Shown in pieces: positions 14,969 to 56,985 of a DNA stretch of 64,000 bases (positions are counted from its first letter, which is position 1; every line of letters begins with the position of its first letter). The notes below the pieces were generated by a model. That model saw only the letters and a program-made list of their open reading frames with translations, did no database searches and was not told the DNA's origin. Both the position numbers and the translations under genes were made by a program. The stretch is from an uncultured Bifidobacterium sp. (GTDB taxonomy: Bacteria; Bacteroidota; Bacteroidia; AKYH767-A; OLB10): NCBI GenBank assembly GCA_964534995.1, contig CAZHSC010000003.1:4252-68251 (forward strand). Direction: 5' to 3'.

Positions 14969-15054
14969 TGTGCTTTGGTTTTTTGATTTCCCCGGATGGA
15001 ATGATGGAATTATACCCTCCGGACCCTGGATGCAAAAATAGTTCTTCTTCCTCT

Positions 15055-16398: not shown

Positions 16399-16403
16399 TA
16401 ACG

Positions 16404-41313: not shown

Positions 41314-44300
41314 TTACTGTGTCAGATCCAGTGTTTTAAAAGCGGTGTTGAAGAGTACAGGTGCCTTGCTCCATGTTTCAAGCGCATGGCGATGCTTGAC
41401 AACCACATAGAAAGAGTTGTTCAATGCGGCAATAGGAAAGTGCATGCTGGCATTGCCATCCGTAAGGACAACATCTTCATCAGTGTACAAAATGGTATAA
41501 GGAGCAGTGGTAGATGCCAGACTTACTGCGATGGTATCCGCAACCGTTGGACTACCACCGGGATTGCTCACTGCATTCATCAGATTTGTACCCGGATTGT
41601 AATAGCCTTCAAAATATAATTTGAGATTCAGTGTTACAAAAGGGTTGAATCCTTCAATTTTGATGTTGTCCACATAAATATTGTTGCCATAATGTCCATG
41701 GTTCATGAAGGAGAGTTGGATGTTTTCACCACCAAACGATGTGATGTCGACAGAATCTGTTCTCCATTGTGAGGCCGTTGGTGTGAAGTAGCCTCCGGTT
41801 CCGGGTACTGTTGCGAGTGTCGTACCGGGTTTTACATAGATGCCGGAATAGCTTTGCCCGCAATCGGAAGAAAGTAGGACGGAGAGGGAGTCGAGGTATT
41901 GTGGACTGGTACTGTACAGTTGATGCGCGACATCGAATTTCAATTGATAGTTTCCAAACCCATTCAGATCATACCGTTTTGTGATGACTTCATCTCGTGC
42001 ACCGTAGGAATCCAGGGTGTAATTCGCGAAGAGCATGGATCCGCTGCCGTTACCAAAGCCGCTCGCTTGTCCTGTGCGTGTCCACATTTTACCATCATTC
42101 CCGCCGTCTAAATTGGTCCACTCCGAAGGTGGAAAAAGGGTGCCTTCAAAGTCTTCCGTTATCGGGATGGCTTGTCCGATAGTAGAAATGTAATTGTTTT
42201 TCGTGATGGTGTTGCTCCCGCCCAATGAACTAACGGTAAGTGTAACCGAAAAGAGGCCGGTGCCGGTGTATTTAACTTTCGGGTTTTGTAAATTGGAAGA
42301 AGAAGGAGACCCGCCGGGAAAACTCCATAGCCAGGAGGTAGGATTGCCGGTACTTAGATCACTGAATTGAACAGAGTCGCCGCTGCAAGGCGTGTTGGTG
42401 TTTGCTGTGAACGCGGCGTTGATGGAGCGAAGGCTACTGATAGGTGTTTCCCACATTCCTCTTCCGTAGGTAGAAACCCGCAGCACCGAGTTGTTGGTGC
42501 CGTCATCAAAGATGCAGATATCATTGATGGTGGTGCGACTCGGTAATTGTTGATTGAAGAGTGTCCAGCTGGTATGTGCGCCGAGTTTAAAATAAATGGA
42601 ATTATTTCCTCCGGCAACGATCATGAGTTCATCCGCGGGATAAAAATCATCAGTGATCAGATCAAGATAATTCACCGAAGGAAGGTTGTAAGTGATATTG
42701 GTCCAGGTGGCGCCATTGTTTATAGATTTATAAATCCGCGTATTCATAATGGCATACAAAGTATTTGGATTTCCTTTCACGGAAACAATTCCGGCAGCAT
42801 TATTGGTAGCATAGGGCAATGCATACTGCGTGAACGTCGGCGAAGCACTCATGGCATTGGTGCTTACATAGATGAACTGGTCGTTAGTGATGGCATACAC
42901 TCTGTTGGAATCCGACTGGGAGACATGAAGAGCGGAAATTCTCTTGTTAAAGGAGGAGATGGTGGTCCATGCAGGGGTAGTCGCGCTGAGATTGATGGTT
43001 CGGAAAACATTTGAGTCTCCCACAAAGGCGATATTGGGTTGACCGCGATAGAAGGCGATATCTCTGTAACTGCTCACCGGTAATCCGAATGTGCTTTCTC
43101 CGCCTGTGACATTTCTGCGTCGGGCATTGCTGTAATAATATACACGCTGACTGTTCGGAAAATAATCAAAGGCGCATTTCGACGACCAGTCTCCTCCCCG
43201 GTTGCAAAACCATCCTGTTCCTGAATTCTGGTAGTAGAGTTCGCCATTGTCCTGAGTGCCGATGCTCATCATGTCTTTGCGTGTCGGACTGGTATAGCCA
43301 TGATAGATTTCATATCCGTAGATGCCATCGCTCTTGGGTACCCAGTTATTCCCGCCGTCGGTACTCAGCCAGACACCGCCATCGTTCATGTTCCAGAGTT
43401 TCGTGTTGTTATGCGGACTGGTGATGATCTGATGCATGTCGGTATGAACCTTTGCCCACCAGTTGGTAAGCTGGGACCAGGTAAAGCCTCCATCGGTTGA
43501 TTTCCAGACGGCATGGGCTACAAGGTAAATGATATTCGGATTGGTTCTGTCCACACCAATGGAAAAATTATAATCTCCCTGCCCTACGTCACCGGGATCA
43601 TTGGTGTAGTAGGTGAGGTAAGGGGGAGAACTTGTTTTAATGGCAGTGAATGTGCTGCCACCATCCACTGATTTATAGAGCAAGCCACCACTACTCACCA
43701 TGCCCAGATAAACGATGTTCGTGTCAGCCGGCGTCACGGCAATTCTGCATCCGCTCCCTGTGGTCACTCCCGGCGGTAAGACGATACCGTTATTGATTTG
43801 CGTCCATGTATCGCCGAAGTCATTAGACCGGAAGAAGGCCGAGTCGCGTGTAGCCGCGTACAAAACCCTCGACCCCGGTCTCTTCTCCTTCATATCATCA
43901 AATGCAATAGCCCCCGTTTTTAAAGACCAGGATGAGCCGCCGTTGGTGGTTTTATAAATCCCGGCGTTGGTTGCAGCAACGATCACCTGATTGTTTGTCG
44001 GATCCATGGCCATTTCCACAACTAATTTAGATGTCAGTGATGTTGCGGTAAAGGTCGTTCCGCCATTTGTAGATTTATAAACGCCACTACCATTATAATA
44101 GTAGTTATGGTCGCCGGTGCCGAGATATAAAATCTGATCATTGGTATGATCAATGCAAACAGAAGCCAGACGCATGCCCGGCAGAATGTCGCACCCCGGA
44201 GCAATCGTCCAGTTGTTGCCACCATTACTACTGATGAACAGTCCGCCGCGTGCACTGACCGCATACAATTTATTGGTATCTGTGGGATGAAATTTCATCT

Positions 44301-44448
44301 GGCTGATACGACTGATACCATGTATTTGTCCGCTGACATTGGTGGGGAAATAGGCGGGAGCCACAGGAGTCCAGCTGGCGGTCTGTGCCGGGGAAGAGAA
44401 GCTATTGGTAAGAAAAATGAAGAGGAGGAAGGTGGTAATTTTATTCAT
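41314..44448 (-). CDS. secreted BNR/Asp-box repeat (sortilin/Vps10-like) protein with PKD and MAM/jelly-roll-like modules
   Basis: Signal peptide. At least 8 Asp-box repeats (STNGGTTF, TTNGGSSW, SNDFGDTW, SVDGGSTF, STDGGFTW, STDGGNNW, SINNGATW). PKD-like segment (FSVTLTVSS). No convincing type-A T9SS sorting domain at the C-terminus. Confidence 0.65.
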   Translation of the reverse strand: MNKITTFLLFIFLTNSFSSPAQTASWTPVAPAYFPTNVSGQIHGISRISQMKFHPTDTNKLYAVSARGGLFISSNGGNNWTIAPGCDILPGMRLASVCIDHTNDQILYLGTGDHNYYYNGSGVYKSTNGGTTFTATSLTSKLVVEMAMDPTNNQVIVAATNAGIYKTTNGGSSWSLKTGAIAFDDMKEKRPGSRVLYAATRDSAFFRSNDFGDTWTQINNGIVLPPGVTTGSGCRIAVTPADTNIVYLGMVSSGGLLYKSVDGGSTFTAIKTSSPPYLTYYTNDPGDVGQGDYNFSIGVDRTNPNIIYLVAHAVWKSTDGGFTWSQLTNWWAKVHTDMHQIITSPHNNTKLWNMNDGGVWLSTDGGNNWVPKSDGIYGYEIYHGYTSPTRKDMMSIGTQDNGELYYQNSGTGWFCNRGGDWSSKCAFDYFPNSQRVYYYSNARRRNVTGGESTFGLPVSSYRDIAFYRGQPNIAFVGDSNVFRTINLSATTPAWTTISSFNKRISALHVSQSDSNRVYAITNDQFIYVSTNAMSASPTFTQYALPYATNNAAGIVSVKGNPNTLYAIMNTRIYKSINNGATWTNITYNLPSVNYLDLITDDFYPADELMIVAGGNNSIYFKLGAHTSWTLFNQQLPSRTTINDICIFDDGTNNSVLRVSTYGRGMWETPISSLRSINAAFTANTNTPCSGDSVQFSDLSTGNPTSWLWSFPGGSPSSSNLQNPKVKYTGTGLFSVTLTVSSLGGSNTITKNNYISTIGQAIPITEDFEGTLFPPSEWTNLDGGNDGKMWTRTGQASGFGNGSGSMLFANYTLDSYGARDEVITKRYDLNGFGNYQLKFDVAHQLYSTSPQYLDSLSVLLSSDCGQSYSGIYVKPGTTLATVPGTGGYFTPTASQWRTDSVDITSFGGENIQLSFMNHGHYGNNIYVDNIKIEGFNPFVTLNLKLYFEGYYNPGTNLMNAVSNPGGSPTVADTIAVSLASTTAPYTILYTDEDVVLTDGNASMHFPIAALNNSFYVVVKHRHALETWSKAPVLFNTAFKTLDLTQ

Positions 44449-45139: not shown

Positions 45140-47518
45140 TTGATTATGAAAAAAATGATACTGTTACTGTTGGTTTTATTACTAAAGCCATGGTCTCTGT
45201 ATAGTCAATGTCAGGCCGGTTACGATGAAGTCATTGTCGTTATACAGCCGGACAATTATCCTTCCGAAACTTCCTGGTCGCTCAAAGATCTGTCAGGAAA
45301 TATCCTTGATTCAGGCGGTTCAACAGGTGATACCGTTTGTGTTCCCACTGGTATTTGCCTGATATTTGAAATCCGTGATACTTATGGCGATGGCATCTGC
45401 TGTAACTTCGGCAATGGTTTTTACGCGGTTTATCTCAATGGTACCATTCAGGCAGCGGGCGGACAGTTCACTTACAATGAATTCAGCTATCTAAATTGTC
45501 CTCCCGGTACTCATTGCGGAAGCGCGCTGGCAGCATATGAAGACACCCTTAGCACTTCCTATGGCAGCAGCATCTGGTATACCTTTTCGCCTGACTCTAC
45601 GGGCACTTATAATGTTTCTACCTGTTTTCCTTCCAATAGTTGCGACACACGGCTTTGGATATATGATCACTGCAACGGACTTGTCTGGAACAATGATATG
45701 GCCGGCACTATTTATTACAATGACAGTACCTGCGGTATCCAGGCCTTCATCCCGGCGGGATTACAATCCGGGCAAACCTATTATATCAGGGTGGGGGGTG
45801 ACTCCACCTGTAGTAATGACAGTATCGTATGGCAGATTACCTATGCCGGACCTATTGTAGGGTGTATGGATCCCGCTGCCTGTAATTACAATCCCATCGC
45901 TACTGTCAGCAATGGCAATTGCATCTATCCGGGTGATCCTAATTGTAATTCAGGTCCTGATTTGGTGGTAGATGGAAATACGCTTATTAACTCACTGAAT
46001 ATGGGTGTGGTGAATGGAAACGATGTTTGCCTGATCGGTGAAGGGTGTTTGTCAGGCTACGGAGCCAGAAATGTGATTAATTTCAGTACGCGTATAGCCA
46101 ACATTGGCGATGCGGATTATTACATCGGGCAACCTGCCACCGGAAATTCTCAATTCGTTTTTGATCAGTGCCATGGCCATTGGCATTATGCAGGCTACGC
46201 GATGTATAACATTTACGATACGCTGGGAGTTCCCTTGCAGGCCGGATTTAAAAATGGATTCTGCGTCCTCGATTTACAGTGTTTTGGAGGTACGGCAAAA
46301 TACAGTTGTGGTAACATGGGTATTTCTGCCGGTTGTGCCGACATTTATGGTGCCGGACTCGCTTGTCAGTGGCTCGATATCACCAATATCCCTGCCGGCC
46401 GTTATACACTCGTGGTGCGTGTAAACTGGGATCAGGATCCGGATAAACTCGGACGACAGGAGCAGCGCTTTGATAACAATGTAGCAGCGGTATGTATCAA
46501 TATTACCCGTGATACAGCCAATGTCCCCTCTTTTGTGATACTTCCCAATTGTCAGCCCATTATTGATTGCGCCGGAGATACTTTCGGTTTGGCCGTTAAC
46601 GATTGTATGGGAAATTGTAATGGTTCGCGGGTACGTGGTGACCTTAACATTGACAGTTTGCGGGATGATATTGATATTGATATGTACCTTATTGATATTA
46701 CGGCTCAGCAAAGCGTAATGCCATGCAATGATGTCAATGGTGATAATACCCTTACCGTTACTGACGCTTCTCTGGTAAGTGGATGTATCCGTCAATCCCA
46801 GGGCTCGCATGCACATCAGGGCGGTACTCAAAATACACACAGGCATTGTGAATTTCCCTGGAACATTATCAATACCAATGATACAGTACGGCTAGGAATC
46901 AGTCAGGTAAATCAAAGCCTGAATTACATCGATATTAATATACTGAATCCCGATTGCCGTTTACTGGCCATTGACTTTACCATGAGCGGTGTGGTGATGG
47001 ATTCGGTGGTTTCATTGATCAGTGGCTTTAGTCCCTTTATAAAATGGGATGCAGTAACAGGACGTATCGCCATCCTGGATACGGCCGAAATCTCACTCGG
47101 GAAACAATTGACAGCGCTACCATTTGTGCGTATTTATTTTAGTTCACTTACGAGTACAACCGTGTGCCTTGCATCCATCCATGCCGCTGTGAATGCCGAT
47201 TACGAAGAAACCCTGAAAAGCATCTTCAATGGTTGTGTGACCGTTACAGGCATCAACATTCTCTATCAAAGCGGACTTGTTAAAATCATACCGAACCCTT
47301 CGGAAGGCATCTTTGCCATTTCTACTGATGTGCTTAATGGCGAAAGCGCAAACATCAGCATTCTGGATGCTATGGGCAGATTGATCTATGCTTCCAAAGA
47401 AGTACTCTCCGCGGGCAAAGGAATTTCAGTTGATCTCAGCAAACATCCCAAAGGTGTCTATCTGGTGCGTGTTCTTACCGGGCAACTTGAAGTAACCGAA
47501 CGACTGGTGAAATTGTAA
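45140..47518 (+). CDS. secreted lysyl-oxidase (LOX) family copper amine-oxidase-like protein with dockerin-like Ca-binding module and T9SS C-terminal sorting domain
   Basis: Signal peptide. LOX catalytic-domain motifs line up with human LOX: copper HxHxH (QCHGHWHY), LTQ lysine context (GFKNGFCVLD), GCADIYGAGLACQWLDITNIPAGRYTLVV, and NNVAAVC. Two DxNxDx6D loops (DLNIDSLRDDID, DVNGDNTLTVTD). Sorting domain KIIPNPSEGIFAIS...GVYLVRVLTGQLEVTERLVKL. Confidence 0.75.
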   Translation: MIMKKMILLLLVLLLKPWSLYSQCQAGYDEVIVVIQPDNYPSETSWSLKDLSGNILDSGGSTGDTVCVPTGICLIFEIRDTYGDGICCNFGNGFYAVYLNGTIQAAGGQFTYNEFSYLNCPPGTHCGSALAAYEDTLSTSYGSSIWYTFSPDSTGTYNVSTCFPSNSCDTRLWIYDHCNGLVWNNDMAGTIYYNDSTCGIQAFIPAGLQSGQTYYIRVGGDSTCSNDSIVWQITYAGPIVGCMDPAACNYNPIATVSNGNCIYPGDPNCNSGPDLVVDGNTLINSLNMGVVNGNDVCLIGEGCLSGYGARNVINFSTRIANIGDADYYIGQPATGNSQFVFDQCHGHWHYAGYAMYNIYDTLGVPLQAGFKNGFCVLDLQCFGGTAKYSCGNMGISAGCADIYGAGLACQWLDITNIPAGRYTLVVRVNWDQDPDKLGRQEQRFDNNVAAVCINITRDTANVPSFVILPNCQPIIDCAGDTFGLAVNDCMGNCNGSRVRGDLNIDSLRDDIDIDMYLIDITAQQSVMPCNDVNGDNTLTVTDASLVSGCIRQSQGSHAHQGGTQNTHRHCEFPWNIINTNDTVRLGISQVNQSLNYIDINILNPDCRLLAIDFTMSGVVMDSVVSLISGFSPFIKWDAVTGRIAILDTAEISLGKQLTALPFVRIYFSSLTSTTVCLASIHAAVNADYEETLKSIFNGCVTVTGINILYQSGLVKIIPNPSEGIFAISTDVLNGESANISILDAMGRLIYASKEVLSAGKGISVDLSKHPKGVYLVRVLTGQLEVTERLVKL

Positions 47519-47740: not shown

Positions 47741-47909
47741 AACATGACATTTTCTGATCCACCTTGTTTGTATTCCGGGTTGAACCGGCATTCCTAAATT
47801 GGGATGAAATCAACAAGGCTCTGTTTTTTGATAAGATTTTTAAAATTTTAACATTAAAATATTTTGTCATTAGAAATTTAATTTTACTTTTGATTCAACT
47901 TTACGACCC

Positions 47910-48311
47910 ATGAAAACTATACAATTTCACCATGGTCTTTTAACAATTTTATTCTCGGCAACGACACTCCTTTTACAGGGACAAACACCTTCTGATGCGT
48001 ATGTGCTGATTTCACCTGACACCGGTAATAATGTAAAGGGTGTTATGCATATCACTTTACCGGATACCAATAACATTGCAGCCATTGAAATTAAGCTGGG
48101 CAGTACCGATGGCGGCTACGACTTAGCGAATTATACTTTTAGTTATGATGTTACCGGATCATTGCCTGCGGGATATGTATGGATGAGAGATGGTTTTAAA
48201 TTGATTCTTTCGATTGGGTCTTATCCTGTCAGTGATCTTCAGTTTGGACGAGTGCGTATGCAAAGAAATGATGGGGGATGGGGGGATGAGTTTGCCTTTG
48301 TGAGGAATTGA
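47910..48311 (+). CDS. small secreted hypothetical protein
   Basis: Signal peptide (LLTILFSATTLLLQGQ). 133 aa, no recognisable domain. Sits just upstream of the giant adhesin/GH gene. Confidence 0.4.
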   Translation: MKTIQFHHGLLTILFSATTLLLQGQTPSDAYVLISPDTGNNVKGVMHITLPDTNNIAAIEIKLGSTDGGYDLANYTFSYDVTGSLPAGYVWMRDGFKLILSIGSYPVSDLQFGRVRMQRNDGGWGDEFAFVRN

Positions 48312-48481
48312 GTTTCTTGTCTACTTTATCGGAAGACAAGATTTTCAGGATGTGTGACATTTAAGTGGATGTGGTTTGTTTGAACGGCTCTAAAAAGAGG
48401 TCGATAGTTGATTATCATCATTAGTCTGTAATTGTATATTCTAGTACGTAATTGATATCACCCATCAAAAACATGTAAACC

Positions 48482-48748
48482 ATGAATCATTTCGTCTATT
48501 TCTTAAGAAAGACCTTTCTCCAAGGTGTTTTCAAATTTCTTGCGTGTGTAATTCTTTTGTTGTTCTTTTCTACTTCATTATTCGCCGGCAACTACACATG
48601 GAACGGCACCATTAACAGCGATTATTCAAATACAGGTAACTGGTCGCCTTCTGGAACTCCCGGGACTAACGACACCATCACCATCAATTCCGGGAAACCT
48701 AACCTGGAACTGGATCAAGATAGAACCGTGAATCGGCTTATTCTCTAA
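48482..48748 (+). CDS. segment 1 of the interrupted giant gene: signal peptide plus start of the adhesin N-terminal repeat
   Basis: MNHF...LLLFFSTSLFA signal peptide, then GNYTWNGTINSDYSNTGNWSPSGTPGTNDTITINSG...TVNRLIL, ending at TAA. Confidence 0.5.
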   Translation: MNHFVYFLRKTFLQGVFKFLACVILLLFFSTSLFAGNYTWNGTINSDYSNTGNWSPSGTPGTNDTITINSGKPNLELDQDRTVNRLIL

Positions 48749-48778
48749 GGGAGCACAATAGATTTAGATACCAATGAA

Positions 48779-51700
48779 TTGCATGTCACACAACGGGCAT
48801 CCTTTAATGGTGGTGATGTCATTGGAGAGTCATTAAAACTGAGAGGAACTTATGCTTTCTTTCAGGGAACAGATTTTAATTGTACCTTAGATGTTGTGGT
48901 AGGACAAATAAAGTTTTCCGGCGGTACATTTGACCAGACCGGATCCTTTGAACAAAACGGCGGGGCCAGCGGTTGGGGTGAGGGCGGTTGCGTGTTTAAT
49001 GCTGAAGTAACTATTAAGAATACAGGAGCTACTTACCTGCGAATGGGAGAAAGTGAAGGAGATGTTTTTAATGATGTCGTTCATTTCTATTCTACCAACG
49101 TTTATGCGCTTCAATTGGCATATGGTGATACAACGATTTACAATAATGCTGTTTATTTAAATAGTACCGGAAATGGAGGAATATCATTTTGTGCAAGCCT
49201 GGATACAAATCATGTGGGTTATGCCCTTTTTGCACTGGAAGGAGAAATCCTTACCGGTAGCTCCGGATTTACTGCTGGTAATATTAATATGAAGCATCTT
49301 TTGTATGAATCCACCAATAGTGCAAACCTGACCGGTAGCGGTACCTCTACCCTTACCTTGAGCGAGAGTAATTTCGCCGGAAAAGTTAACTTTGCCTCCA
49401 CAAATATTTATGTAAAGACAACTGTATTCAATGATAGTACGCTGTTGGTGAGAAGCGGAGCCACATCATCTCAAAGTTGGTCAGGAGGTAATATTTTCAA
49501 AGGCGTTACTACGATTTCCAGTACTTTTTCGAGCAACACCAGTTATACATTTACACTGGCTTTAGATAGCGGTGATGTATTTGAGAAGGATGTGTATTTC
49601 AACACCCAAATTCTTACAATGAGAGTCGCATTTAAGGGAACCACTAAATTTTATGGAGATGTAAACATCAATAGCTCTAAAGTTGTATTCAATGCAGGAA
49701 GAGGTATTTTCATGTGCTCAGGAGAAATGAACCAAAGTATAGGCGGGAGTGCTGCTTATCTATTAGGGAAATTACACCTAAATAAGGAAGCGGGCAAGGT
49801 GGAAATGATGCGATCTTGTACCATTGATAGCAGTTTGACATTGAGTGGTGGCTTATTACAAACGGATTCTCTTATTTCTCTAAAATCTCCGGTGACTACA
49901 ACCGGCTCCTCTGCCAATAGTTTCATTGATGGCCCTGTGAAAAAAACCGGAAATTCAGCGTTTGTTTTCCCTATTGGAGATCAGGGCAAGTACCGGCCCT
50001 TAACTATATCTGCTCCATCACAGGCGACAGATGCTTTTTCTGCGCAGTACTTCTATAGCCCTCAGCAGGCAGGTACATCAACTGATACTACTATAGGGGA
50101 AATCAGTCCATGCAATTATTGGGATTTGCAACGCAAAACAGGCACCAGCAATGTCTATGTGACTTTGAGCTGGGATTCTATTGGCTGTTGCGTGCTGGAT
50201 TCTTCCAATATAAAAGTGATTAACTGGAATAATTCTGTCTGGAAGGATCTGGGCAAAGGTAGTCTTGGCGGCAATGCAAATACGGGTCAAATTACTTCAG
50301 CTATTGTTCCATATACTTATGGATTAATTACAATAGGGACAAATCCTATCATTATTAAAGATATCTTTCCTGTGGTAGATAGAAACAAAACTGATGAAGG
50401 CTGGTATCATTCTTTTGTTGCGGAAGACCCCATTTACGGCTACAATGGAAGCAATACCATTGAACCGGGAAAAAGTTGGCAGGATTATGCGAACGTAGAT
50501 CTCTTGAAAGAGAAAAATGTGAAGTCCTTACGAATACCTTCCGGCACCACTGCCAACTATTGGGATTGGAGGGAAGGATGGTTTTTAAAGGAGCATGAAC
50601 TCCCTGAGGGATGGTTGTACGAAAAGGAAAAATATAAAGCTGCCAACATCAGTGGAAATGAAATGATAAACATTAAACCACATGTAGATGAGTTGGGTGC
50701 TGCACCTGTTTATCTTTTTAACATGCTCACCTCCGATTTTCATTATCAATTGGCAAGTTTGTATAGAGCACATCAAATTAACTTGCCTGTAAAATTTGTA
50801 GAATTGGGCAATGAGTTTTATCTGAATGAAGCACACCATCGCAGTAAATTTCCAAACGCGAGTGACTATGCCGTAGCCTGCAATGACTGGACAAGTCAAT
50901 TAAAAGCTATAGCACCTTTTGCTGACGTGAAAGTGGCCGTGATTGGATGTGATGGTGGCGATGATTCACCGGGTAGAAGAAGATTATGGCTGGAGAGAGT
51001 GCTTGCCAACTTAGATCCGCAAGCCCAAATTGATGCTATAACTATTCATCAATATTATGGAAATGGATTAGGAAGTCAGCCTTTTAGTGGAAGTGCCGGT
51101 AGTCTTAAGACCATGCTTTCCCGGCCATTTAAAGAAATAGAACTGTTAATTGGTCATGAACTAAATCTCATCAATGACTTCAATGAAGGACCTCTTTCAG
51201 CATTTCCATTGAAAACCTGGATTACTGAGTTTAATTTACGCACCTCAGGTCATGGAAGCACGGGCACATGGGCACATGGCTTGTTTCATGCTGCAATGGC
51301 ATTGAGTTATCTGGAATCGCAAAATATCACATCGATTATTTCACATACTATGAGTAGTGATGTGCTTTTCGGAAATATTTTTGATTCAAATAATGGATTT
51401 GCCACTTATGCTCAAAATGGCAATTACCCACCCACGACCAAACAAAATGAATATACCGCTTTAGGAGCAGCTTTTAATCAAATTGCCAAAGCTGCCCGCT
51501 ATGCAACGGACGCATATAAAGTTGATTTTACCGGTATAGACGACCAGGATTTACCCTATCTCTATAATACAGGTGTTAATACCACTTCTGTAAGAGAGGT
51601 GTATGCCTGGCTCTTTGAAAGTGCTGCCGGCAATGAACTTATTGTGTTAAACCTGGGTGGTAATTCTTTTCATATGTATTTAGATGATATTTTTCAATCT

Positions 51701-52282
51701 GTCGGTCTTTCTACACACCCCATTCGTTATGAAAGGTTAATCAGTGTTGACATTACGGGCGGAATAACGGGAAGCCCTGTAACAAGTATTCCGCCAACTC
51801 CCGTTGGTTATGATAATTATTATCTGATTACGAGCAATGAACTTCCGGTTGCAACAAATTCAAACGGAACATTTGTTCCAATTTCAAATTACTCCCTAAC
51901 CCGCATCTCACAAAAACTTCCCGGATTTATTTTGAATGTTACGGATGATCATATTTGTACAAGTACCAGTACTGAACCCTCTACTACCTCAATAGTAATT
52001 ACCGGTGGTGTTTCTCCGTATACTATAGTTGAAACATCTCCTAATAGTAGTACAAGCTACTCCCAGCCCGATTCTGTTATAGCATTTACAGCACATCAAA
52101 CAAACACAGGAGTTTACACGATTACAGTTACCGATGCGAATAATTCAACTGCAACTGCAACGATTACAGTTGATACGCGTCCAATAGTTAATGTAACCTC
52201 CAATCCTACTTCAGGCAATTGCAATACATCATTCCAGTTAACAGCATCAATCAACCCGGCGCCTTCAAATTATGAGTATTAA
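48779..52282 (+). CDS. segment 2: parallel beta-helix repeats, clan GH-A TIM-barrel glycoside-hydrolase-like domain, Ig-like/SprB-type repeats
   Basis: The track start is a TTG codon. GH-A signatures RIPSGTTANYWDW, VKFVELGNEFYL (candidate acid/base Glu) and TWITEFNL (candidate nucleophile Glu). C-terminal Ig-like repeat (VITGGVSPYTIVETSP...YTITVTDANNSTATATITVD). Confidence 0.55.
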   Translation: MHVTQRASFNGGDVIGESLKLRGTYAFFQGTDFNCTLDVVVGQIKFSGGTFDQTGSFEQNGGASGWGEGGCVFNAEVTIKNTGATYLRMGESEGDVFNDVVHFYSTNVYALQLAYGDTTIYNNAVYLNSTGNGGISFCASLDTNHVGYALFALEGEILTGSSGFTAGNINMKHLLYESTNSANLTGSGTSTLTLSESNFAGKVNFASTNIYVKTTVFNDSTLLVRSGATSSQSWSGGNIFKGVTTISSTFSSNTSYTFTLALDSGDVFEKDVYFNTQILTMRVAFKGTTKFYGDVNINSSKVVFNAGRGIFMCSGEMNQSIGGSAAYLLGKLHLNKEAGKVEMMRSCTIDSSLTLSGGLLQTDSLISLKSPVTTTGSSANSFIDGPVKKTGNSAFVFPIGDQGKYRPLTISAPSQATDAFSAQYFYSPQQAGTSTDTTIGEISPCNYWDLQRKTGTSNVYVTLSWDSIGCCVLDSSNIKVINWNNSVWKDLGKGSLGGNANTGQITSAIVPYTYGLITIGTNPIIIKDIFPVVDRNKTDEGWYHSFVAEDPIYGYNGSNTIEPGKSWQDYANVDLLKEKNVKSLRIPSGTTANYWDWREGWFLKEHELPEGWLYEKEKYKAANISGNEMINIKPHVDELGAAPVYLFNMLTSDFHYQLASLYRAHQINLPVKFVELGNEFYLNEAHHRSKFPNASDYAVACNDWTSQLKAIAPFADVKVAVIGCDGGDDSPGRRRLWLERVLANLDPQAQIDAITIHQYYGNGLGSQPFSGSAGSLKTMLSRPFKEIELLIGHELNLINDFNEGPLSAFPLKTWITEFNLRTSGHGSTGTWAHGLFHAAMALSYLESQNITSIISHTMSSDVLFGNIFDSNNGFATYAQNGNYPPTTKQNEYTALGAAFNQIAKAARYATDAYKVDFTGIDDQDLPYLYNTGVNTTSVREVYAWLFESAAGNELIVLNLGGNSFHMYLDDIFQSVGLSTHPIRYERLISVDITGGITGSPVTSIPPTPVGYDNYYLITSNELPVATNSNGTFVPISNYSLTRISQKLPGFILNVTDDHICTSTSTEPSTTSIVITGGVSPYTIVETSPNSSTSYSQPDSVIAFTAHQTNTGVYTITVTDANNSTATATITVDTRPIVNVTSNPTSGNCNTSFQLTASINPAPSNYEY

Positions 52283-52309
52283 ACCTACTTATGGACACCT
52301 TCTACCGGA

Positions 52310-55300
52310 TTGGAAACATTTAACGGATCATGTAATCCGGGAGGAGTAACTCCAATGTGTTCTACTATTGTGGTAAACCCAGAGCAAACAACTTCCTATC
52401 AGGTGTATGTGTTTGATGGTACATGCTGGAGCCGGAGTAGTGAGTATGAGATACTGCGAGCACCCGTAAATCATGTGGATATTGGCGAAGATCTTACGGT
52501 TTGTTCAGATGGTGTTACTGGGCCAACTATTAAACTAAGCGCAATCCTTGATTCAGACCCAACCATAACTATTAGTGGAACTTATAATTGGACTATTTCC
52601 GGAACGTCCGGTAATATTCCTAATTGTTCCACGGATTGTGAAATACTATTACCTGCAACAATTGGGGAAACATATACAATAACGCTATCTCTTTTAGAAA
52701 GTGGATTTCCATGTTCAATTCCCGACGTAATGGAAGTTTATGTTACAGAATGTTGCGATTGTATATCAAATTCAATTTCTTTAAATCCAAGTCAAGGAAC
52801 GACAGTTGAAAATCATGTTTTCTCAAGCCAGCTTTCTCAACAAATGTTAAATCCATATTTCCTAAAAGCGAATGAAGATTTTGAGCCTATTTATGATATT
52901 AAAGGATGGATTCCCGTTGTTTATCCGAACACGTCTCAAACACCAAACAGCAATACCATTTGCATCAACGGAGATTTAATAATTGACCGGGATATAGCGT
53001 TTCGTGATGTCATTTTAAGGATGAATGAGAATAGTAAAATTAGAATTTTAGATGATCATTTACTCATTTTGCAAGGATGTAGTATTAAAAGTTGCGACAG
53101 AACTATTCCTGCTGCTATGTGGGATGGAATCGAAGCGGAAAGGTTACTTGATAAACGGGAACCTCGACTTTTTATTGACCAAAGTAGCACAAACAGAACC
53201 TCTATTTCTGAAGCTAAAAGTGCTATTTCTTTAAAAAACGGAGCAGAATACATCATTGAAAACACTGATTTCACCAATAATTATGTGGATATTGATGTGG
53301 CCGATTATGGGAATGTAATTCAACAAAACACTATTACCGGCACATCCAAAAAACTTTTCTCCGTCCACTCCAATACCTTTTCCAACTCGGTGGACCCGCT
53401 ACTTCCTCCTTATGATAATGTGCATAAATTCGCCGCCATCCGTCTGGATGATGTGGAGCGGTTTGTGTTAGGGGATTCAACCGACGAGGCTCACAGAAAT
53501 TCAATTAACAATTCAATTTATGGAATTCGTGCGATGAACTCCGGTTTTGAAGTATATAATACCGGGTTTAGTGATATAGAAAATTTAGATAATTGGTCAA
53601 CGAAAACATTGGCCGGAAGCGCGATTTATGGAGATGGCTTTAACGATGGTGCGGATAGAAATGTGTTGATTGGAGCTACGACAGCGGGTACAGGATTCAG
53701 AAATGTTTTTAATTCATCTGTGAATGGTATTGTTTCGGTTGGAGAAACGAACTTGAAGGTGTTTAATAATGAATTTGGTAGTGGTAGTACCAATGAACGA
53801 CTTGTGAATTATGGAATATGGACACATGGTAGTAATAAAAAATCTGTTTATATCACTCGCGGAAATGAGTTTTATGATTACTATGTTGGCATCAGGAGTT
53901 TTGGGATTCATCCGGATGGTATCTATCATATAGGATTTAATAATTTTTTCAACGCCTATATCCCAAATTGGAGTGTAGTGAATTCTTTTCAGGGTACAGC
54001 TATTCATATGTCGAATAGTTATGTACCACCATCTTTTATTGGTCAATCAGAAGTTCCTCCAATTAATATTTACAACAATGAAATTGGACAAATAAATGAT
54101 GAAGCTGAAATTGAACCAAGAATAGGGATTTTCACCTCTAATATTTATCAACCTATCATCCAAAACAACAATATTTATTATTTCAGAGCAGCACAGGTGT
54201 CTAAACCGCATAGCATTGGTATCTGGGCACAAAACTGTATTGCACCAAGAGTAGCAGGGAATTTAATTTTGGAGCACCAAAATATTAATCAAGGTTATGG
54301 TGCTAACCTCATTGGTATGAAGTTCGACCGAAATATTAATCCTTGTATTGGCAGCCAAAGTATTACAGAAAATTTAGGCTATGGAGTAAGTTTTTGGGAC
54401 AATAACGGTCAGGTGACCTTATCTACCAATCAATTTACAAACTGCGACCATGGCGTAAATTTAGACTGGGCAGAAATCGGCACACAAGGTGACCCCGACC
54501 GAACCGATGATAATGAATGGGTCGATCGAAGTGTTAGTCCGGTTCTGAACCGCGTGAATGGTCTTACTCAAAGTAATCTTCCAATTACCTGGTATTATCA
54601 ACCTACACCAAATGCATTTTCGCCACTGCCGAGTACGATTGTCGACGATCAAGACATTAATCCTAATCTACCAATTTTAGATTGTCCAATTATTCAAAAT
54701 GTTGCCCCTCGCAATCAGACTTTTGGATATGTTATTGGCGACTCCGCCCGATATGAAGAGAACTATCAGAGTAGTTTCAGCTACAGTGCAAAAATGATAA
54801 CCTACAAAATTTTAAAACGGGACAACTCGCTCATGGAAATGGAAGATGAGACGGATGAATCGTTTATAGATTTTTACAATGCTATGAGTCAAAGCAATAT
54901 AGAAAAATACGATTCCGTTGCGCTTTTAATTACACAGGGCGAATTTGCTGTTGCTGCTGCATTACTGGCAGGTATTGAAGATACCAATGACCAGGAAACT
55001 TACCTTACAAATTTTTATACACTCTACCTTACAAAAATTGCGTATGATTCCTTGTTAAGTAATGCGGATAGTTCGTTGCTAATTGAAATAGCCTATTCTC
55101 ATTCACTATTGTATGGAGATGCAGTATACCTGGCCCGTAACACTCTGTTTCTTGAAATTCATGATGAAACACTTGAAAGCAATTTAAGAAGAGCTTTTAT
55201 TAGTAAACTTCCTGAGAATAATAATTTATCAACTCAACCCAATCCTGCGTCTTTACTAACTCAAGTAAGGCTGAACGATGAAGAATATTCCGGTAGAGTG

Positions 55301-55453
55301 CAGTTGCTAGATGGACATGTTCAGTTGATAATAGATCGTAACCTCCAAAATGGATGGTTAGATGTAAAGAATTTGAATCCGGGAATTTACTTTATAAAAA
55401 CGTTTGGTGAAGGAACTTCACCGTTATTGTGTAAGCTTGTAATTATCCGATGA
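52310..55453 (+). CDS. segment 3: Ig-like repeat continuation, right-handed beta-helix region and T9SS C-terminal sorting domain
   Basis: Begins inside a YxYxWxPxxGL-type repeat (TYLWTPSTGLETFNGSCNPGG...TTSYQVYVFD). Long beta-helix-like repeats. Sorting domain at the end (PNPASLLTQVRLNDEEYSGRVQLLDGHVQLII...GIYFIKTFGEGTSPLLCKLVII). Confidence 0.55.
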   Translation: METFNGSCNPGGVTPMCSTIVVNPEQTTSYQVYVFDGTCWSRSSEYEILRAPVNHVDIGEDLTVCSDGVTGPTIKLSAILDSDPTITISGTYNWTISGTSGNIPNCSTDCEILLPATIGETYTITLSLLESGFPCSIPDVMEVYVTECCDCISNSISLNPSQGTTVENHVFSSQLSQQMLNPYFLKANEDFEPIYDIKGWIPVVYPNTSQTPNSNTICINGDLIIDRDIAFRDVILRMNENSKIRILDDHLLILQGCSIKSCDRTIPAAMWDGIEAERLLDKREPRLFIDQSSTNRTSISEAKSAISLKNGAEYIIENTDFTNNYVDIDVADYGNVIQQNTITGTSKKLFSVHSNTFSNSVDPLLPPYDNVHKFAAIRLDDVERFVLGDSTDEAHRNSINNSIYGIRAMNSGFEVYNTGFSDIENLDNWSTKTLAGSAIYGDGFNDGADRNVLIGATTAGTGFRNVFNSSVNGIVSVGETNLKVFNNEFGSGSTNERLVNYGIWTHGSNKKSVYITRGNEFYDYYVGIRSFGIHPDGIYHIGFNNFFNAYIPNWSVVNSFQGTAIHMSNSYVPPSFIGQSEVPPINIYNNEIGQINDEAEIEPRIGIFTSNIYQPIIQNNNIYYFRAAQVSKPHSIGIWAQNCIAPRVAGNLILEHQNINQGYGANLIGMKFDRNINPCIGSQSITENLGYGVSFWDNNGQVTLSTNQFTNCDHGVNLDWAEIGTQGDPDRTDDNEWVDRSVSPVLNRVNGLTQSNLPITWYYQPTPNAFSPLPSTIVDDQDINPNLPILDCPIIQNVAPRNQTFGYVIGDSARYEENYQSSFSYSAKMITYKILKRDNSLMEMEDETDESFIDFYNAMSQSNIEKYDSVALLITQGEFAVAAALLAGIEDTNDQETYLTNFYTLYLTKIAYDSLLSNADSSLLIEIAYSHSLLYGDAVYLARNTLFLEIHDETLESNLRRAFISKLPENNNLSTQPNPASLLTQVRLNDEEYSGRVQLLDGHVQLIIDRNLQNGWLDVKNLNPGIYFIKTFGEGTSPLLCKLVIIR

Positions 55454-55461
55454 CATAGACA

Positions 55462-56985
55462 ATGAAAAGTGTAGCCGTACTTGCTTTCTTTCTTTTTACT
55501 ACCATTTCTTTGTATGCGCAAAAATACAAAGGGAATGTATGGTGTTTTGGGGATTCAGCTGGAATTGACTGGGCAAATCCTAATTCTCCAATATTTTTTA
55601 GATCGATGATGCATGGAAGGAGTGGCACGGCAAGTATTAGCGATAGTAGTGGGAATTTAATATTATATTCTGGTTATAAGCGTGAACCAGCAAATAATCG
55701 TGGATGGATATTAAATAAATTCCATCAATTAGTACCCAATGGTGACACGTTGTATTTTCAAGATTGGTATCATTCTGTCATCCTTCTTCCAAGTGTAAAT
55801 GATTCAATAATTTATTTGTTTTCAGTTAGTGTTACAAATATTCAAACCTATGGCCTTTATTACAGCACGGTCAATTACAAAGCTAATAGTGATTCCGGAA
55901 TTGTTACACAAAAAAATATCCAGTTAAACAACCTTCCGGCATTTGATGGATTGGCTACTGTCAGGCATGGAAACGGACTGGATTGGTGGGTAATATTTAA
56001 GGATTATGACCCTACACCGCCTTACACTTTAAGCAGTAAATTTTATATCTATTTGGTCGATGCAAATGGGCCCGCACTTCATCATACCCAGACGGTCGGA
56101 ACTGTTTTTAATGATGGAGGAGGGCATTCACTTTTTAATACAGATGGCTCTAAATTTTACTTGTGTACTTGGGGAGGTGCCATTGAATATTTTGATTTTA
56201 ACAGATGCAATGGTTATTTTTCAAATCCAACAGTAATTGAACCAACAAGAAGCGCTCAACCTTATCCTTATTATAACTCATTGGCTTTATCTCCTGATGA
56301 AACAAAGCTGTATGTGTCTGCATATTCTCAATACAACTCATTAGGCGGTACCGATTCTTTGTACCAGTTTGATTTAACAGCGGCTAATATTTCTGTCAGT
56401 AAAACACATATTTATGGCGCACCAAATACTTATGTTGGACTTGGAGCATTAAGAAAGGCTCCTGATGATAATATATACTTAGCTGCTACTTATTTAAATT
56501 ATTACCCGTATCAGGACACTTCTTACAACGTTTATAACACCCACCTTTCCGTCATCAACCAACCCGATTCACTCGGCCTTGCCTGCGATTTTCAACCCTT
56601 CAGCTTTTACCTCGGGGGTGCCAGAACATATAACGGCCTTCCCAACAATCCCGATTACGAACTCGGCGCCTGGGTGGGTTCTCCTTGCGATACGCTGAGT
56701 GTGGGTGTGGATGATTTTCAACCCCCAAAGCAAACGTTTTTTCAAGCCTGGTATAATAGTGAGTGGAATATGATTCACGTAAACGCCTCTAAACTTAAAG
56801 GTAGAACGGGAAGTTTGCGCTTGTTTGATATGGAGGGGAGGTTGGTGTATGAGAAAAAAATTGAGGTGAAAGCGGGAGGGTATGTAACGGGAGAGATACC
56901 GATGAATGCGGTCGTGAATGGAGTTTATCTTGTCAATTTAATAACTGATTCGGAAAGTGTTTCGTCTAAGATTGTTAAATTTTAG
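55462..56985 (+). CDS. secreted beta-propeller (lactonase-like) protein with T9SS C-terminal sorting domain
   Basis: Signal peptide. Propeller-blade motifs (SPDETKLYVSAYS, FNTDGSKFYLCTW). Sorting domain (GSLRLFDMEGRLVYEKKIEVKAGGYVTGEIP...GVYLVNLITDSESVSSKIVKF). Confidence 0.6.
   Translation: MKSVAVLAFFLFTTISLYAQKYKGNVWCFGDSAGIDWANPNSPIFFRSMMHGRSGTASISDSSGNLILYSGYKREPANNRGWILNKFHQLVPNGDTLYFQDWYHSVILLPSVNDSIIYLFSVSVTNIQTYGLYYSTVNYKANSDSGIVTQKNIQLNNLPAFDGLATVRHGNGLDWWVIFKDYDPTPPYTLSSKFYIYLVDANGPALHHTQTVGTVFNDGGGHSLFNTDGSKFYLCTWGGAIEYFDFNRCNGYFSNPTVIEPTRSAQPYPYYNSLALSPDETKLYVSAYSQYNSLGGTDSLYQFDLTAANISVSKTHIYGAPNTYVGLGALRKAPDDNIYLAATYLNYYPYQDTSYNVYNTHLSVINQPDSLGLACDFQPFSFYLGGARTYNGLPNNPDYELGAWVGSPCDTLSVGVDDFQPPKQTFFQAWYNSEWNMIHVNASKLKGRTGSLRLFDMEGRLVYEKKIEVKAGGYVTGEIPMNAVVNGVYLVNLITDSESVSSKIVKF

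What the first reader, a model, noticed from the sequence alone, without database searches (positions are those of the whole stretch)
48482..55453. Giant T9SS-cargo beta-helix, GH-A hydrolase and Ig-like repeat gene split into three same-frame ORFs by two TAA codons
The ORFs at 48482, 48779 and 52310 are all in the same reading frame. They are separated only by single TAA codons at 48746..48748 and 52280..52282. The first ORF contributes only a signal peptide and the start of a Bacteroidetes adhesin N-terminal motif (GNWSPSGTP...TVNRLIL*GSTIDLDTNELHV). The second stop cuts through a YxYxWxPxxGL-type Ig-like repeat (NYEY*TYLWTPSTGLETFNGSC). The type-A T9SS sorting domain is only on the third ORF. 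So the ancestral product was a single secreted protein of about 2,320 residues. It combined parallel beta-helix repeats, a clan GH-A TIM-barrel domain (RIPSGTTANYWDW; ELGNEF candidate acid/base; WITEFN candidate nucleophile), Ig-like repeats, more beta-helix and the sorting domain. Both interruptions are TAA and both fall inside conserved repeats. Either this is a recently inactivated gene, or there is an assembly or base-call problem, or, less likely, translational read-through. The domain combination itself, a T9SS-anchored glycanase on a beta-helix adhesin scaffold, is unusual.
Basis: partly seen in the sequence, partly recalled or inferred. Interest (0 to 1): 0.8.

Follow-up and report, generated by a model that had tools for sequence, protein, structure and literature searches.

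The report
Recently broken giant T9SS glycanase gene
This is one copy of a multi-copy, uncharacterised family of about 2,300-residue secreted surface proteins (adhesin-like beta-helix plus a GH51-like sugar-cleaving domain) that has recently been knocked out by two TAA nonsense mutations, which makes it an ordinary young pseudogene, or less likely two base-call errors, in an interesting family.

Summary
ORFs 48482..48748, 48779..52282 and 52310..55453 share one frame. They are separated only by TAA at 48746..48748 and 52280..52282.

At least 14 homologues of 2,281-2,344 aa align end to end across both stop positions with sense codons. The nearest relatives have TAC (Tyr) at the second site. 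The ancestral product was therefore one protein of about 2,320 aa.

- **Age of the lesions:** dN/dS against the nearest relatives is 0.08-0.27 in every segment, including downstream of the stops. There is no rate acceleration on the window branch. The lesions are therefore young.
- **Assembly quality:** about 24 other genes in the window show full-length Pfam domain coverage, so this is not a generally error-ridden assembly.
- **Consequence of the split:** only piece 1 has the signal peptide and only piece 3 has the CTD, so no piece can be secreted normally.

Best reading is a recent pseudogene (about 0.7). A base-call artefact (about 0.2) cannot be excluded without reads. The gene sits in a conserved three-gene cassette that occurs in several copies per genome in uncultured Bacteroidia.

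The parts
47910..48311 (+). Upstream 133-aa ORF with an N-terminal hydrophobic leader. It is the first gene of the conserved cassette and is intact here.
   Evidence: It is 92-94% identical to the ORF upstream of the orthologue in L001, L002 and L017. Homologues at 26-55% identity lie just upstream of nearly all family members. It has no Pfam hit.
48482..48745 (+). Piece 1 (aa 1-88): Sec-type signal peptide (about aa 1-35) and the conserved N-terminal NYTWNG..NWSPSGxP segment.
   Evidence: Translation. The hydrophobic maximum (Kyte-Doolittle 2.6) is at aa 15-29. The piece aligns to the N-termini of P0002-P0017.
48746..48748 (+). In-frame TAA no. 1 (codon 89).
   Evidence: Homologues carry sense codons here: S, N, H or T (CAT in L002, AAC in L028).
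48749..49756 (+). Right-handed parallel beta-helix, adhesin-like (aa 90 to about 425).
49757..50371 (+). Beta-hairpin and beta-sandwich module (aa about 426-630) carrying the KKxGNxAFxFPxGD and WDSxGC motifs shared with many other giant T9SS proteins.
   Evidence: Secondary structure of the AF2 model. Motif positions. These two motifs were the patterns that retrieved 93 loci. Hits P0019-P0060 share only this N-terminal part.
50372..51850 (+). GH51-like clan GH-A catalytic module: (beta/alpha)8 barrel plus C-terminal beta-sandwich (aa 631-1123).
   Evidence: AF2 model m369bb270e398: pLDDT 84.2, pTM 0.89. Foldseek against PDB: GH51 arabinofuranosidases, E 4e-18, TM 0.55-0.68, then GH79 at E 1e-12. 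The family profile hits GH51 chains at E 5e-12. No Pfam or NCBIfam hit.
50813..50815 (+). Codon for Glu778 (ELGNEF), the candidate general acid/base.
   Evidence: Nearly invariant (at least 90%) in the 67-sequence alignment A3 (E148 in domain numbering). It aligns with the GNE motif of GH51 structures. Position.
51227..51229 (+). Codon for Glu916 (WITEFN), the candidate nucleophile.
   Evidence: Invariant E286 in alignment A3. Position. The role is inferred from the GH-A pattern and was not aligned residue by residue to a solved structure.
51851..53161 (+). Cys-rich beta region, possibly Ig- or PKD-like (aa about 1124-1560), interrupted by the second stop.
   Evidence: Sub-threshold K319L-like PKD (E 0.002) and Big_3 (E 0.018) hits. 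Conserved Cys, W-x-P and PMC columns occur across the family.
52280..52282 (+). In-frame TAA no. 2 (codon 1267).
   Evidence: L001 and L002 have TAC (Tyr) in an otherwise near-identical context. P0001 and P0002 have Tyr.
53159..54871 (+). Second beta-helix region with PbH1/NosD-like repeats (aa about 1560-2130). The boundaries are approximate.
   Evidence: NNxIxxxxxGI-type repeats are visible in the translation. The family profile hits NosD 7o0y weakly (E 0.014). Precomputed PF13229 and PF05048 occur in homologues P0009 and P0020. No structure was predicted for this part.
55238..55450 (+). T9SS type A C-terminal sorting domain (CTD).
   Evidence: Por_Secre_tail: Pfam E 4e-4, 21.1 bits, below the 27-bit cut-off; TIGR04183 E 0.0013. 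The family profile matches solved CTDs (8glk_D E 4e-8, 5jvk, 7pzj, 9whd, 8qb1).
55462..56985 (+). Downstream 507-aa protein with its own leader and a T9SS CTD. It is the third gene of the conserved cassette and is intact here.
   Evidence: Por_Secre_tail E 6e-5 and a weak beta-propeller (Lactonase) hit. Homologues, often 2-4 in tandem, follow nearly all family members.

Best explanation
The three ORFs are the remains of one gene for a secreted protein of about 2,322 residues. Its architecture is: Sec signal peptide, adhesin-like right-handed beta-helix, beta-sandwich, GH51-like clan GH-A glycosidase, Cys-rich beta region, second beta-helix, helical region and T9SS type A sorting domain. In the intact state (inferred) the protein would cross the inner membrane through Sec. 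The T9SS would then recognise its C-terminal domain, and the protein would be released or anchored at the cell surface, where the beta-helices bind a polymer or surface and the glycosidase cuts it. In this genome two independent single-base substitutions have truncated it: TAC to TAA at codon 1267, and probably TAT or another near-cognate codon to TAA at codon 89. Translation now ends after 88 residues. Pieces 2 and 3 have no signal peptide, and only piece 3 carries the sorting domain, so none of them can follow the normal secretion route. The gene is therefore a young pseudogene. Loss is probably tolerated because the genome lineage carries several paralogous cassettes. What is shown directly: the stops, the single-gene ancestry, the folds, the purifying selection until recently, and the integrity of the neighbouring genes. 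What is inferred: that the stops are real in the DNA of the organism, that no read-through occurs, and what the substrate and role of the protein are.
For: Both stops are single TAA codons in one continuous frame. Fourteen homologues of 2,281-2,344 aa cover 98-100% of the concatenated sequence and carry sense codons at both sites. L001 and L002 have TAC where the window has TAA at 52280. dN/dS against L001 and L002 is 0.08-0.27 in all segments, with dS about 0.3. A relative-rate test finds 30 window-unique versus 35 L002-unique amino-acid changes, so there is no long period of relaxed constraint. Of all possible single-base changes in this ORF, 4.3% create a stop, so two stops and no frameshift imply very little neutral time. 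About 24 other genes of the window show full-length Pfam domain coverage, so both lesions fall in 11% of the window. ORF2 and ORF3 lack an N-terminal hydrophobic segment. The CTD is only at the end of ORF3. The family is multi-copy per genome. The orthologue in L001 also carries an in-frame TAA (GAA to TAA, codon 415) and a 1-nt deletion, which suggests this gene is lost repeatedly.
Against: No reads are available, so the two TAA codons cannot be verified. The window's contig could not be retrieved with its metadata, so the sequencing technology is unknown. Many disrupted relatives come from nanopore-based MAGs whose frameshifts look like homopolymer errors, so disruption in relatives is weak support. 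The two flanking cassette genes are intact, and the gene shows no other decay. That fits very recent inactivation but fits an intact gene with two base-call errors equally well.
Confidence: 0.7

Rival explanations
1. The gene is intact in the organism, and the two TAA codons are consensus or base-call errors. Alternatively they are minority-strain alleles fixed in a metagenome-assembled consensus.
For: The window's proteins trace to an NCBI contig of 89,272 bp without protein accessions, which is typical of a MAG. Close relatives are MAGs with demonstrable assembly errors: L002 has eight 1-nt deletions, all in runs of 2-4 identical bases, in about 21 kb compared with L001, and L025 is 97-100% identical to the intact P0014 but has two frame changes. 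The gene shows strong purifying selection and no other decay.
Against: Both lesions are substitutions, not homopolymer indels. About 24 other genes in the window look full-length. If errors were spread evenly, the chance that both fall in this 7 kb of 64 kb is about 1.2% (calculated). Paralogues within a genome are only about 35-55% identical, too divergent for cross-mapping during polishing to explain the changes.
Confidence: 0.2
2. The stops are real but are partly read through or suppressed, or the codon-89 region acts as an on/off site. A low level of full-length protein would then still be made.
For: The gene remains otherwise perfectly open over 6.97 kb. A second genome (L001) carries a lesion within 1-3 codons of the window's first stop, a coincidence expected in well under 1% of cases by chance.
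Against: The stops are not conserved. L002, L028, L004, L032 and all 14 full-length homologues have sense codons at both sites. The L001 lesion is a different kind of event, a 1-nt deletion. TAA is the commonest normal terminator in the window (19 of 43 long ORFs). No tRNA gene, and hence no suppressor, lies in the window. No known read-through or slippery motif is evident at CTC TAA GGG or TAT TAA ACC (from general knowledge of bacterial recoding signals).
Confidence: 0.05
3. These are three genuinely separate genes that encode three proteins.
For: TTG start codons lie 30 nt and 27 nt after the stops. A gene caller did call the 1,167-aa middle ORF as a protein.
Against: No homologue is organised this way with sense-level conservation of the breaks. 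Homologues align continuously across both junctions, including the 10 codons between each stop and the next TTG. The breaks fall inside conserved folded regions. Pieces 2 and 3 lack signal peptides, and pieces 1 and 2 lack a CTD.
Confidence: 0.03

Closest known systems
T9SS type A cargo proteins of Bacteroidota (for example F. johnsoniae ChiA chitinase and SprB/RemA adhesins, P. gingivalis gingipains)
   Same: It has an N-terminal Sec signal and a C-terminal Por_Secre_tail/TIGR04183-type sorting domain. The family profile matches solved CTDs. It is a large multi-domain surface or secreted protein, and its neighbours in the window are also CTD proteins.
   Different: This copy is split, so the signal peptide and the CTD are on different ORFs. 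The architecture (EtpA-like beta-helix, GH51-like domain, second beta-helix) matched no Pfam or NCBIfam model apart from the CTD, and I found no paper describing it.
GH51 alpha-L-arabinofuranosidases (for example Thermotoga 3s2c/3ug3, Geobacillus AbfA 1pz3, C. thermocellum Araf51 2c7f)
   Same: It shares the (beta/alpha)8 barrel plus C-terminal beta-sandwich fold (Foldseek E 4e-18, TM up to 0.68). The profile-to-sequence match of E 5e-12 aligns LRyPGGt..NY.W and the GNE acid/base motif. The HxY and TE motifs are conserved.
   Different: Sequence identity is only 11-17%. There is no Pfam or NCBIfam hit, even for stand-alone family members of about 500 aa. The HMM alignment covers only the first half of the barrel. 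Here the domain is embedded in a 2,300-aa T9SS protein, and its substrate is unknown.
GH79 beta-glucuronidase/heparanase (AcGlcA79A, 3vny)
   Same: It is the second-best structural neighbour (E 1e-12). It belongs to clan GH-A and has an ELGNE-type acid/base motif (the motif resemblance is from general knowledge).
   Different: The structural match is weaker than to GH51, and no GH79 chain appeared in the profile search of PDB sequences.
Beta-helical adhesins and passenger domains (EtpA, HMW1, pertactin, Vag8) and phage tailspike depolymerases
   Different: The secretion route differs: T9SS rather than two-partner or autotransporter secretion. There is no sequence similarity (6-12% identity), and Foldseek found nothing significant.
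Bacterial pseudogenes created by nonsense mutation in multi-copy surface-protein families
   Same: The frame is disrupted relative to intact homologues, paralogues are available to compensate, and the flanking genes are intact.
   Different: It is very young, with no further decay, and it is unverified at read level.

Membership tests
T9SS type A cargo | C-terminal type A sorting domain (Pfam PF18962 / TIGR04183) | tested here: met
   The window sequence alone is below the curated cut-offs (21.1 bits against 27; 18.6 against 23). The family profile, however, matches solved T9SS CTDs at E 4e-8 to 3e-4, and most homologues carry a precomputed PF18962 hit.
T9SS type A cargo | N-terminal Sec signal peptide on the same polypeptide as the CTD | tested here: not met
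   A hydrophobic leader is present only on ORF1. Two TAA codons separate it from the CTD. The feature is met in the intact homologues P0003-P0015.
T9SS type A cargo | Host encodes the T9SS machinery (PorV, SprA, etc.) | not tested
   No core T9SS gene was identified among the window genes scanned. Indirect support comes from two neighbouring genes with Por_Secre_tail domains (45140..47518 and 55462..56985).
Clan GH-A glycoside hydrolase | (beta/alpha)8 barrel with an Asn-Glu acid/base after strand 4 and a Glu nucleophile after strand 7 | tested here: met
   The AF2 barrel has pLDDT above 90 through the core. The top 50 Foldseek hits are all GH-A families, GH51 and GH79. N777-E778 and E916 are conserved in 67 sequences. 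GNE aligns to the GNE of GH51. The strand assignment of E916 is inferred.
GH51 | Sequence membership (recognised by family models, significant similarity over the whole catalytic module) | tested here: inconclusive
   The profile hit to GH51 chains at E 5e-12 covers only profile positions 63-280, about the first half of the barrel. Pfam has no hit at all, including for stand-alone members. dbCAN/CAZy was not available.
GH51 | C-terminal beta-sandwich packed on the barrel | tested here: met
   The model has beta strands at domain residues 378-489 after the barrel, though pLDDT is low at 459-481. Full-length superposition on GH51 gives TM 0.55-0.68.
GH51 | alpha-L-arabinofuranosidase (or endoglucanase) activity | not testable with these tools
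   This needs an enzyme assay.
Pseudogene | Reading frame disrupted relative to intact orthologues or paralogues | tested here: met
   There are two in-frame TAA codons where 14 full-length homologues have sense codons.
Pseudogene | Lesions are real in the organism's DNA and no full-length product is made | not testable with these tools
   No reads and no expression data are available, and the window's contig was not retrievable.
Programmed stop-codon read-through / recoding | The stop codon and its context are conserved among orthologues | tested here: not met
   There are sense codons at both positions in L002, L028, L004, L032 and P0002-P0017. L001 has a different lesion nearby.

The most novel reading that the evidence does not exclude
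The region around codon 89 could be a recurrent switch-off point, or more broadly this cassette's giant gene could be repeatedly and selectively inactivated in natural populations, for example to escape a phage or predator that uses the exposed protein. The window has TAA at codon 89. The orthologue in an independent genome (L001) has a 1-nt deletion within three codons of the same spot plus its own TAA at codon 415. Both genes otherwise remain under strong purifying selection. Alongside this, the cassette (133-aa protein, giant beta-helix/GH51-like protein, tandem 507-aa T9SS proteins) would be an undescribed T9SS surface glycanase system built around a glycoside hydrolase family not yet covered by Pfam.
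Probability: 0.07. Interest if true: 0.65.

Novelty: new member of a known kind. Interest (0 to 1): 0.3.

Why it matters
The split itself matters mainly for annotation. The three ORFs should be annotated as one disrupted gene, not as three hypothetical proteins.

The family behind it is of more interest. It is a giant T9SS cargo that couples an EtpA-like beta-helix to a GH51-like catalytic module that no Pfam or NCBIfam model recognises. A search found 867 cluster representatives of that module, many of them stand-alone enzymes of about 500 aa. The gene is always flanked by the same small secreted protein and by tandem T9SS proteins of about 507 aa. It is present in several mosaic copies per genome in uncultured Bacteroidia recovered largely from activated sludge.

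That makes it a reasonable target for discovering a new glycosidase specificity, and for studying how surface-protein cassettes are exchanged and lost.

Tried and rejected
- **Global stop-codon reassignment.** Rejected, because TAA, TGA and TAG all terminate long ORFs in the window.
- **Retrieving the window's own contig.** I tried this to learn its source and technology. Five exact-product look-ups failed (and the 507-aa ORF). The listing of cluster members showed only 'NCBI, contig 89,272 bp, no accession'.
- **Metagenome scan for same-species contigs covering the stop sites.** It returned one distant relative at 35% identity, so there is no independent copy of the two sites.
- **Pfam and NCBIfam on the three pieces and on sub-segments.** Only the CTD and sub-threshold PKD/Big hits appeared. 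Pfam on ten stand-alone relatives of the GH module found nothing. phmmer of the GH module against PDB sequences found nothing.
- **A shared ancestral lesion at codon 89 in the window and L001.** Rejected. The events differ in kind, and dN/dS of about 0.1 over dS of about 0.3 is incompatible with a pseudogene of that age.
- **Disrupted relatives as evidence for frequent pseudogenisation.** Largely discounted. Most are in nanopore 'tig' MAGs, where 1-nt deletions in short runs of identical bases also occur in flanking genes.
- **Promoter and terminator scan.** Counts were at shuffle level, so it was uninformative.
- **Literature searches.** They found no description of this family or cassette.
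Full report
**1. The observation**

The ORF list and a straight translation of 48380..55500 show three ORFs in one frame: 48482..48748, 48779..52282 and 52310..55453. The only interruptions are TAA at 48746..48748 (context CTC TAA GGG) and TAA at 52280..52282 (context TAT TAA ACC). The frame ends with TGA at 55451..55453.

The other five frames of the same 6,969 nt carry 110-221 stops each. A frame with two stops is therefore not a chance event.

The window uses a standard code. Among 43 long ORFs the terminators are TAA 19, TGA 17 and TAG 7. No tRNA gene lies in the window.

**2. One gene, not three**

I searched with the concatenated 2,323-aa translation, with X at the stops. This returned 14 proteins of 2,281-2,344 aa that cover 98-100% of the query at 33-50% identity (P0002-P0007, P0009-P0015), plus P0008 at 2,314 aa.

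In a multiple alignment these proteins run straight through both stop positions.
- At codon 89 they carry S, N or T, inside the conserved NR[LI]V..[GA].T[IL].L[DN] strand.
- At codon 1267 the two closest relatives carry Tyr (NYEYYT[FY]LWTPSTGLE).

At DNA level, L001 and L002 read TAT TAC ACC where the window reads TAT TAA ACC. The second lesion is therefore a C-to-A change in a Tyr codon.

At codon 89, L002 has CAT, L028 has AAC, and L001 reads TAT under one placement of its gap. A single change from a TAT-like codon is the simplest origin, but this is an inference.

**3. Age of the lesions**

The nearest relatives are two MAGs, and I compared the window with both:
- L001: JADKAG010000006.1, GCA_016719205.1.
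- L002: JADKIC010000001.1.

Nei-Gojobori dN/dS is 0.27 for codons 1-86, 0.13-0.14 for codons 92-440, 0.08 for 442-900, 0.15-0.16 for 901-1266 and 0.16 for 1268-1600. dS is about 0.3 over piece 2.

A relative-rate test with P0002 as outgroup gives 30 window-specific against 35 L002-specific amino-acid changes (p = 0.54).

Of all possible single-base changes in this ORF, 4.3% would create a stop. A gene drifting neutrally for even 1% divergence would be expected to pick up about three more stops, plus indels. The lesions are therefore very recent compared with the split from the nearest relatives, or they are not real.

**4. Real mutation or artefact?**

I could not reach reads or the record of the source contig. 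Exact-product look-ups failed. The cluster table says only that the 1,167-aa middle ORF and the 507-aa neighbour come from an NCBI contig of 89,272 bp without protein accessions.

Two points argue against an artefact.
- About 24 other genes of the window match full-length Pfam domains. Examples are EPSP synthase 2-417/417, UvrD, urocanase, acetyl-CoA synthetase, PurL, the E1 and E2 subunits, DnaJ, ApbE and an amino-acid permease. The ORF map is tightly packed. If errors were uniform, the chance that both fall in this 11% of the window is about 1.2%.
- Both lesions are substitutions. The demonstrable errors in related nanopore-derived MAGs are 1-nt deletions in short runs of identical bases. 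L002 has eight of them in about 21 kb relative to L001, one of which causes L002's own frameshift in this gene. L025 is 97-100% identical to the intact P0014 yet changes frame twice.

One point argues for caution. Apart from the two codons the gene looks perfectly healthy.

I put a real, young pseudogene at about 0.7 and an artefact or strain-mixture consensus at about 0.2.

**5. A coincidence worth recording**

The orthologue in L001 is also split into three called genes of 92, 315 and 1,880 aa. Its lesions are a 1-nt deletion within three codons of the window's first stop and GAA to TAA at window codon 415.

L002, which is about 100% identical to L001 over most of the gene, has sense codons at all these sites.

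The lesions near codon 89 differ in kind, and given the dN/dS values they cannot be inherited from a common ancestor. Two independent hits within three codons of a 2,323-codon gene are unexpected (well under 1% by chance). I cannot explain this beyond chance or an L001 assembly error in a GGG run.

The stops are not conserved in any other homologue, so this does not rescue a programmed read-through model.

**6. What the protein is**

Residue numbers below refer to the reconstructed protein.

- **aa 1-35, signal peptide.** It has a basic n-region and a hydrophobic core with a Kyte-Doolittle maximum of 2.6.
- **aa 90-630, beta-helix and beta-sandwich.** This part was modelled with 50 homologues (pLDDT 93.5, pTM 0.89).
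  - Residues about 426-630 form long hairpins and a beta-sandwich. This module carries the KKxGNxAFxFPxGD and WDSxGC motifs that many other giant T9SS proteins share.
- **aa 631-1123, glycosidase module.** It has no Pfam, NCBIfam or direct PDB sequence match.
  - An exhaustive search found 867 cluster representatives, many of them stand-alone proteins of about 500 aa. These also lack Pfam hits.
  - A 67-sequence profile hits GH51 alpha-L-arabinofuranosidases at E 5e-12. It aligns LRyPGGt..NY.W and the GNE acid/base motif.
  - The AF2 model (pLDDT 84.2, pTM 0.89) superposes best on GH51 structures (E 4e-18, TM 0.55-0.68), then on GH79 beta-glucuronidase (E 1e-12).
  - Glu778 (ELGNEF), His856-x-Tyr858 and Glu916 (WITEFN) are invariant or nearly so. 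The module is therefore predicted to be catalytically competent.
- **aa about 1124-1560, Cys-rich region.** It has only sub-threshold PKD/Big_3 similarity. The second stop lies three residues before a nearly invariant W-x-P.
- **aa about 1560-2130, second beta-helix.** It has PbH1-like repeats, a weak NosD match (E 0.014) and Beta_helix/NosD Pfam hits in homologues. I did not model it.
- **Last 70 residues or so, T9SS type A CTD.** The window sequence alone is sub-threshold. The family profile matches solved CTDs at E 4e-8.

**7. Consequence of the split**

Export through the T9SS needs a Sec signal and the CTD on one chain (established knowledge of T9SS cargo).

Here the signal peptide is on an 88-residue stub. 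Pieces 2 and 3 have no hydrophobic N-terminus and would start at TTG codons inside conserved strands. The first break removes the start of the beta-helix, and the second cuts a conserved domain. Even if the pieces were translated they would stay in the cytoplasm. The copy is therefore non-functional unless the stops are read through.

**8. Genomic setting**

The gene is the middle of a conserved cassette.
- A 133-aa secreted ORF (47910..48311) precedes it.
- A 507-aa T9SS protein (55462..56985) follows it.
- Homologues of both flank nearly every family member in the 80 loci fetched. The downstream gene is often present as 2-4 tandem copies.
- Single MAGs carry five or more cassettes.

The cassette is mosaic.
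- The window is 87-99% identical in DNA to L001/L002 from 47835 to about 53300, then only about 50% identical over the last 2.2 kb of the gene. The flanking genes are unrelated.
- L001 and L002 themselves differ by about 22% in the first 600 nt and are otherwise about 100% identical.
- The window's PurL has no relative above 87% identity, whereas piece 2 of the giant gene is 92-93% identical to L001/L002. This suggests exchange of cassette segments between related species. That is an inference and was not tested phylogenetically.

**9. Comparison with what is known, and verdict**

Functionally this looks like a T9SS-delivered surface glycanase on an adhesin-like scaffold, comparable in logic to other T9SS cargo enzymes and adhesins.

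It passes the tests for clan GH-A and for a T9SS CTD. Membership of GH51 proper is unresolved, because the fold and half-barrel profile match are offset by 11-17% identity and the absence of a family-model hit. I found no paper describing the family.

The headline feature, two TAA codons, is an ordinary young pseudogene or a base-call problem.

Interest is modest for the split (0.3 overall). The uncharacterised GH-A family and the conserved multi-copy cassette are the parts worth following up.

Noticed in passing
window 47910..48311 and 55462..56985; loci L001-L049: There is a conserved three-gene cassette: a secreted ORF of about 133 aa, the giant gene, and 1-4 tandem T9SS proteins of about 507 aa (weak beta-propeller hit plus CTD). 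It flanks nearly every family member and occurs in several copies per genome.
   Followed up: partly
window 47835..53577 versus L001 8025..13767 and L002 9077..14823: The similarity is mosaic. DNA identity to L001/L002 is 87-99% over the first 4.8 kb of the gene, then about 50% over the last 2.2 kb, and the flanking genes are unrelated. PurL in the window has no relative above 87% aa identity, while piece 2 of the giant gene is 92-93% identical to L001/L002. This suggests exchange of cassette segments between species.
   Followed up: partly
L001 8939..8949 and 9920..9922: The orthologue in GCA_016719205.1 is also split into three called genes. It has a 1-nt deletion within three codons of the window's first TAA and GAA to TAA at window codon 415. 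L002, near-identical over most of the gene, has sense codons at these sites.
   Followed up: yes
L002 (JADKIC010000001.1) versus L001; L025, L028, L031, L032: Nanopore-type 'tig' MAGs carry many 1-nt deletions in short runs of identical bases: eight in about 21 kb in L002, including flanking genes. Several family copies there show 2-6 frame changes. L025 is 97-100% identical to the intact P0014 but is frameshifted twice. Disrupted copies in these assemblies should not be read as pseudogenes.
   Followed up: partly
window 50372..51850; proteins P0069-P0215: The GH51-like module belongs to a family with 867 cluster representatives (at 50% identity clustering), many of them stand-alone proteins of about 500 aa. 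None of the ten I scanned hits any Pfam family above noise, so this may be a clan GH-A family without a model.
   Followed up: partly
window 45140..47518 (+): This is a 792-aa protein with a lysyl oxidase domain (E 4e-29) and a T9SS CTD. It lies directly upstream of the cassette, and its best relative among the loci is at 41% identity in L047.
   Followed up: no
window 14968..16398 and 16350..17687 (+): These are two adjacent same-strand ORFs of 476 and 445 aa that overlap by 49 nt, neither with any Pfam hit. They are the only pair in the window that could conceivably be one frameshifted gene.
   Followed up: no
window 41314..44448 (-): This is a 1,044-aa protein with Sortilin/Vps10-type repeats and a PKD domain, another large secreted-type protein near the cassette.
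   Followed up: no
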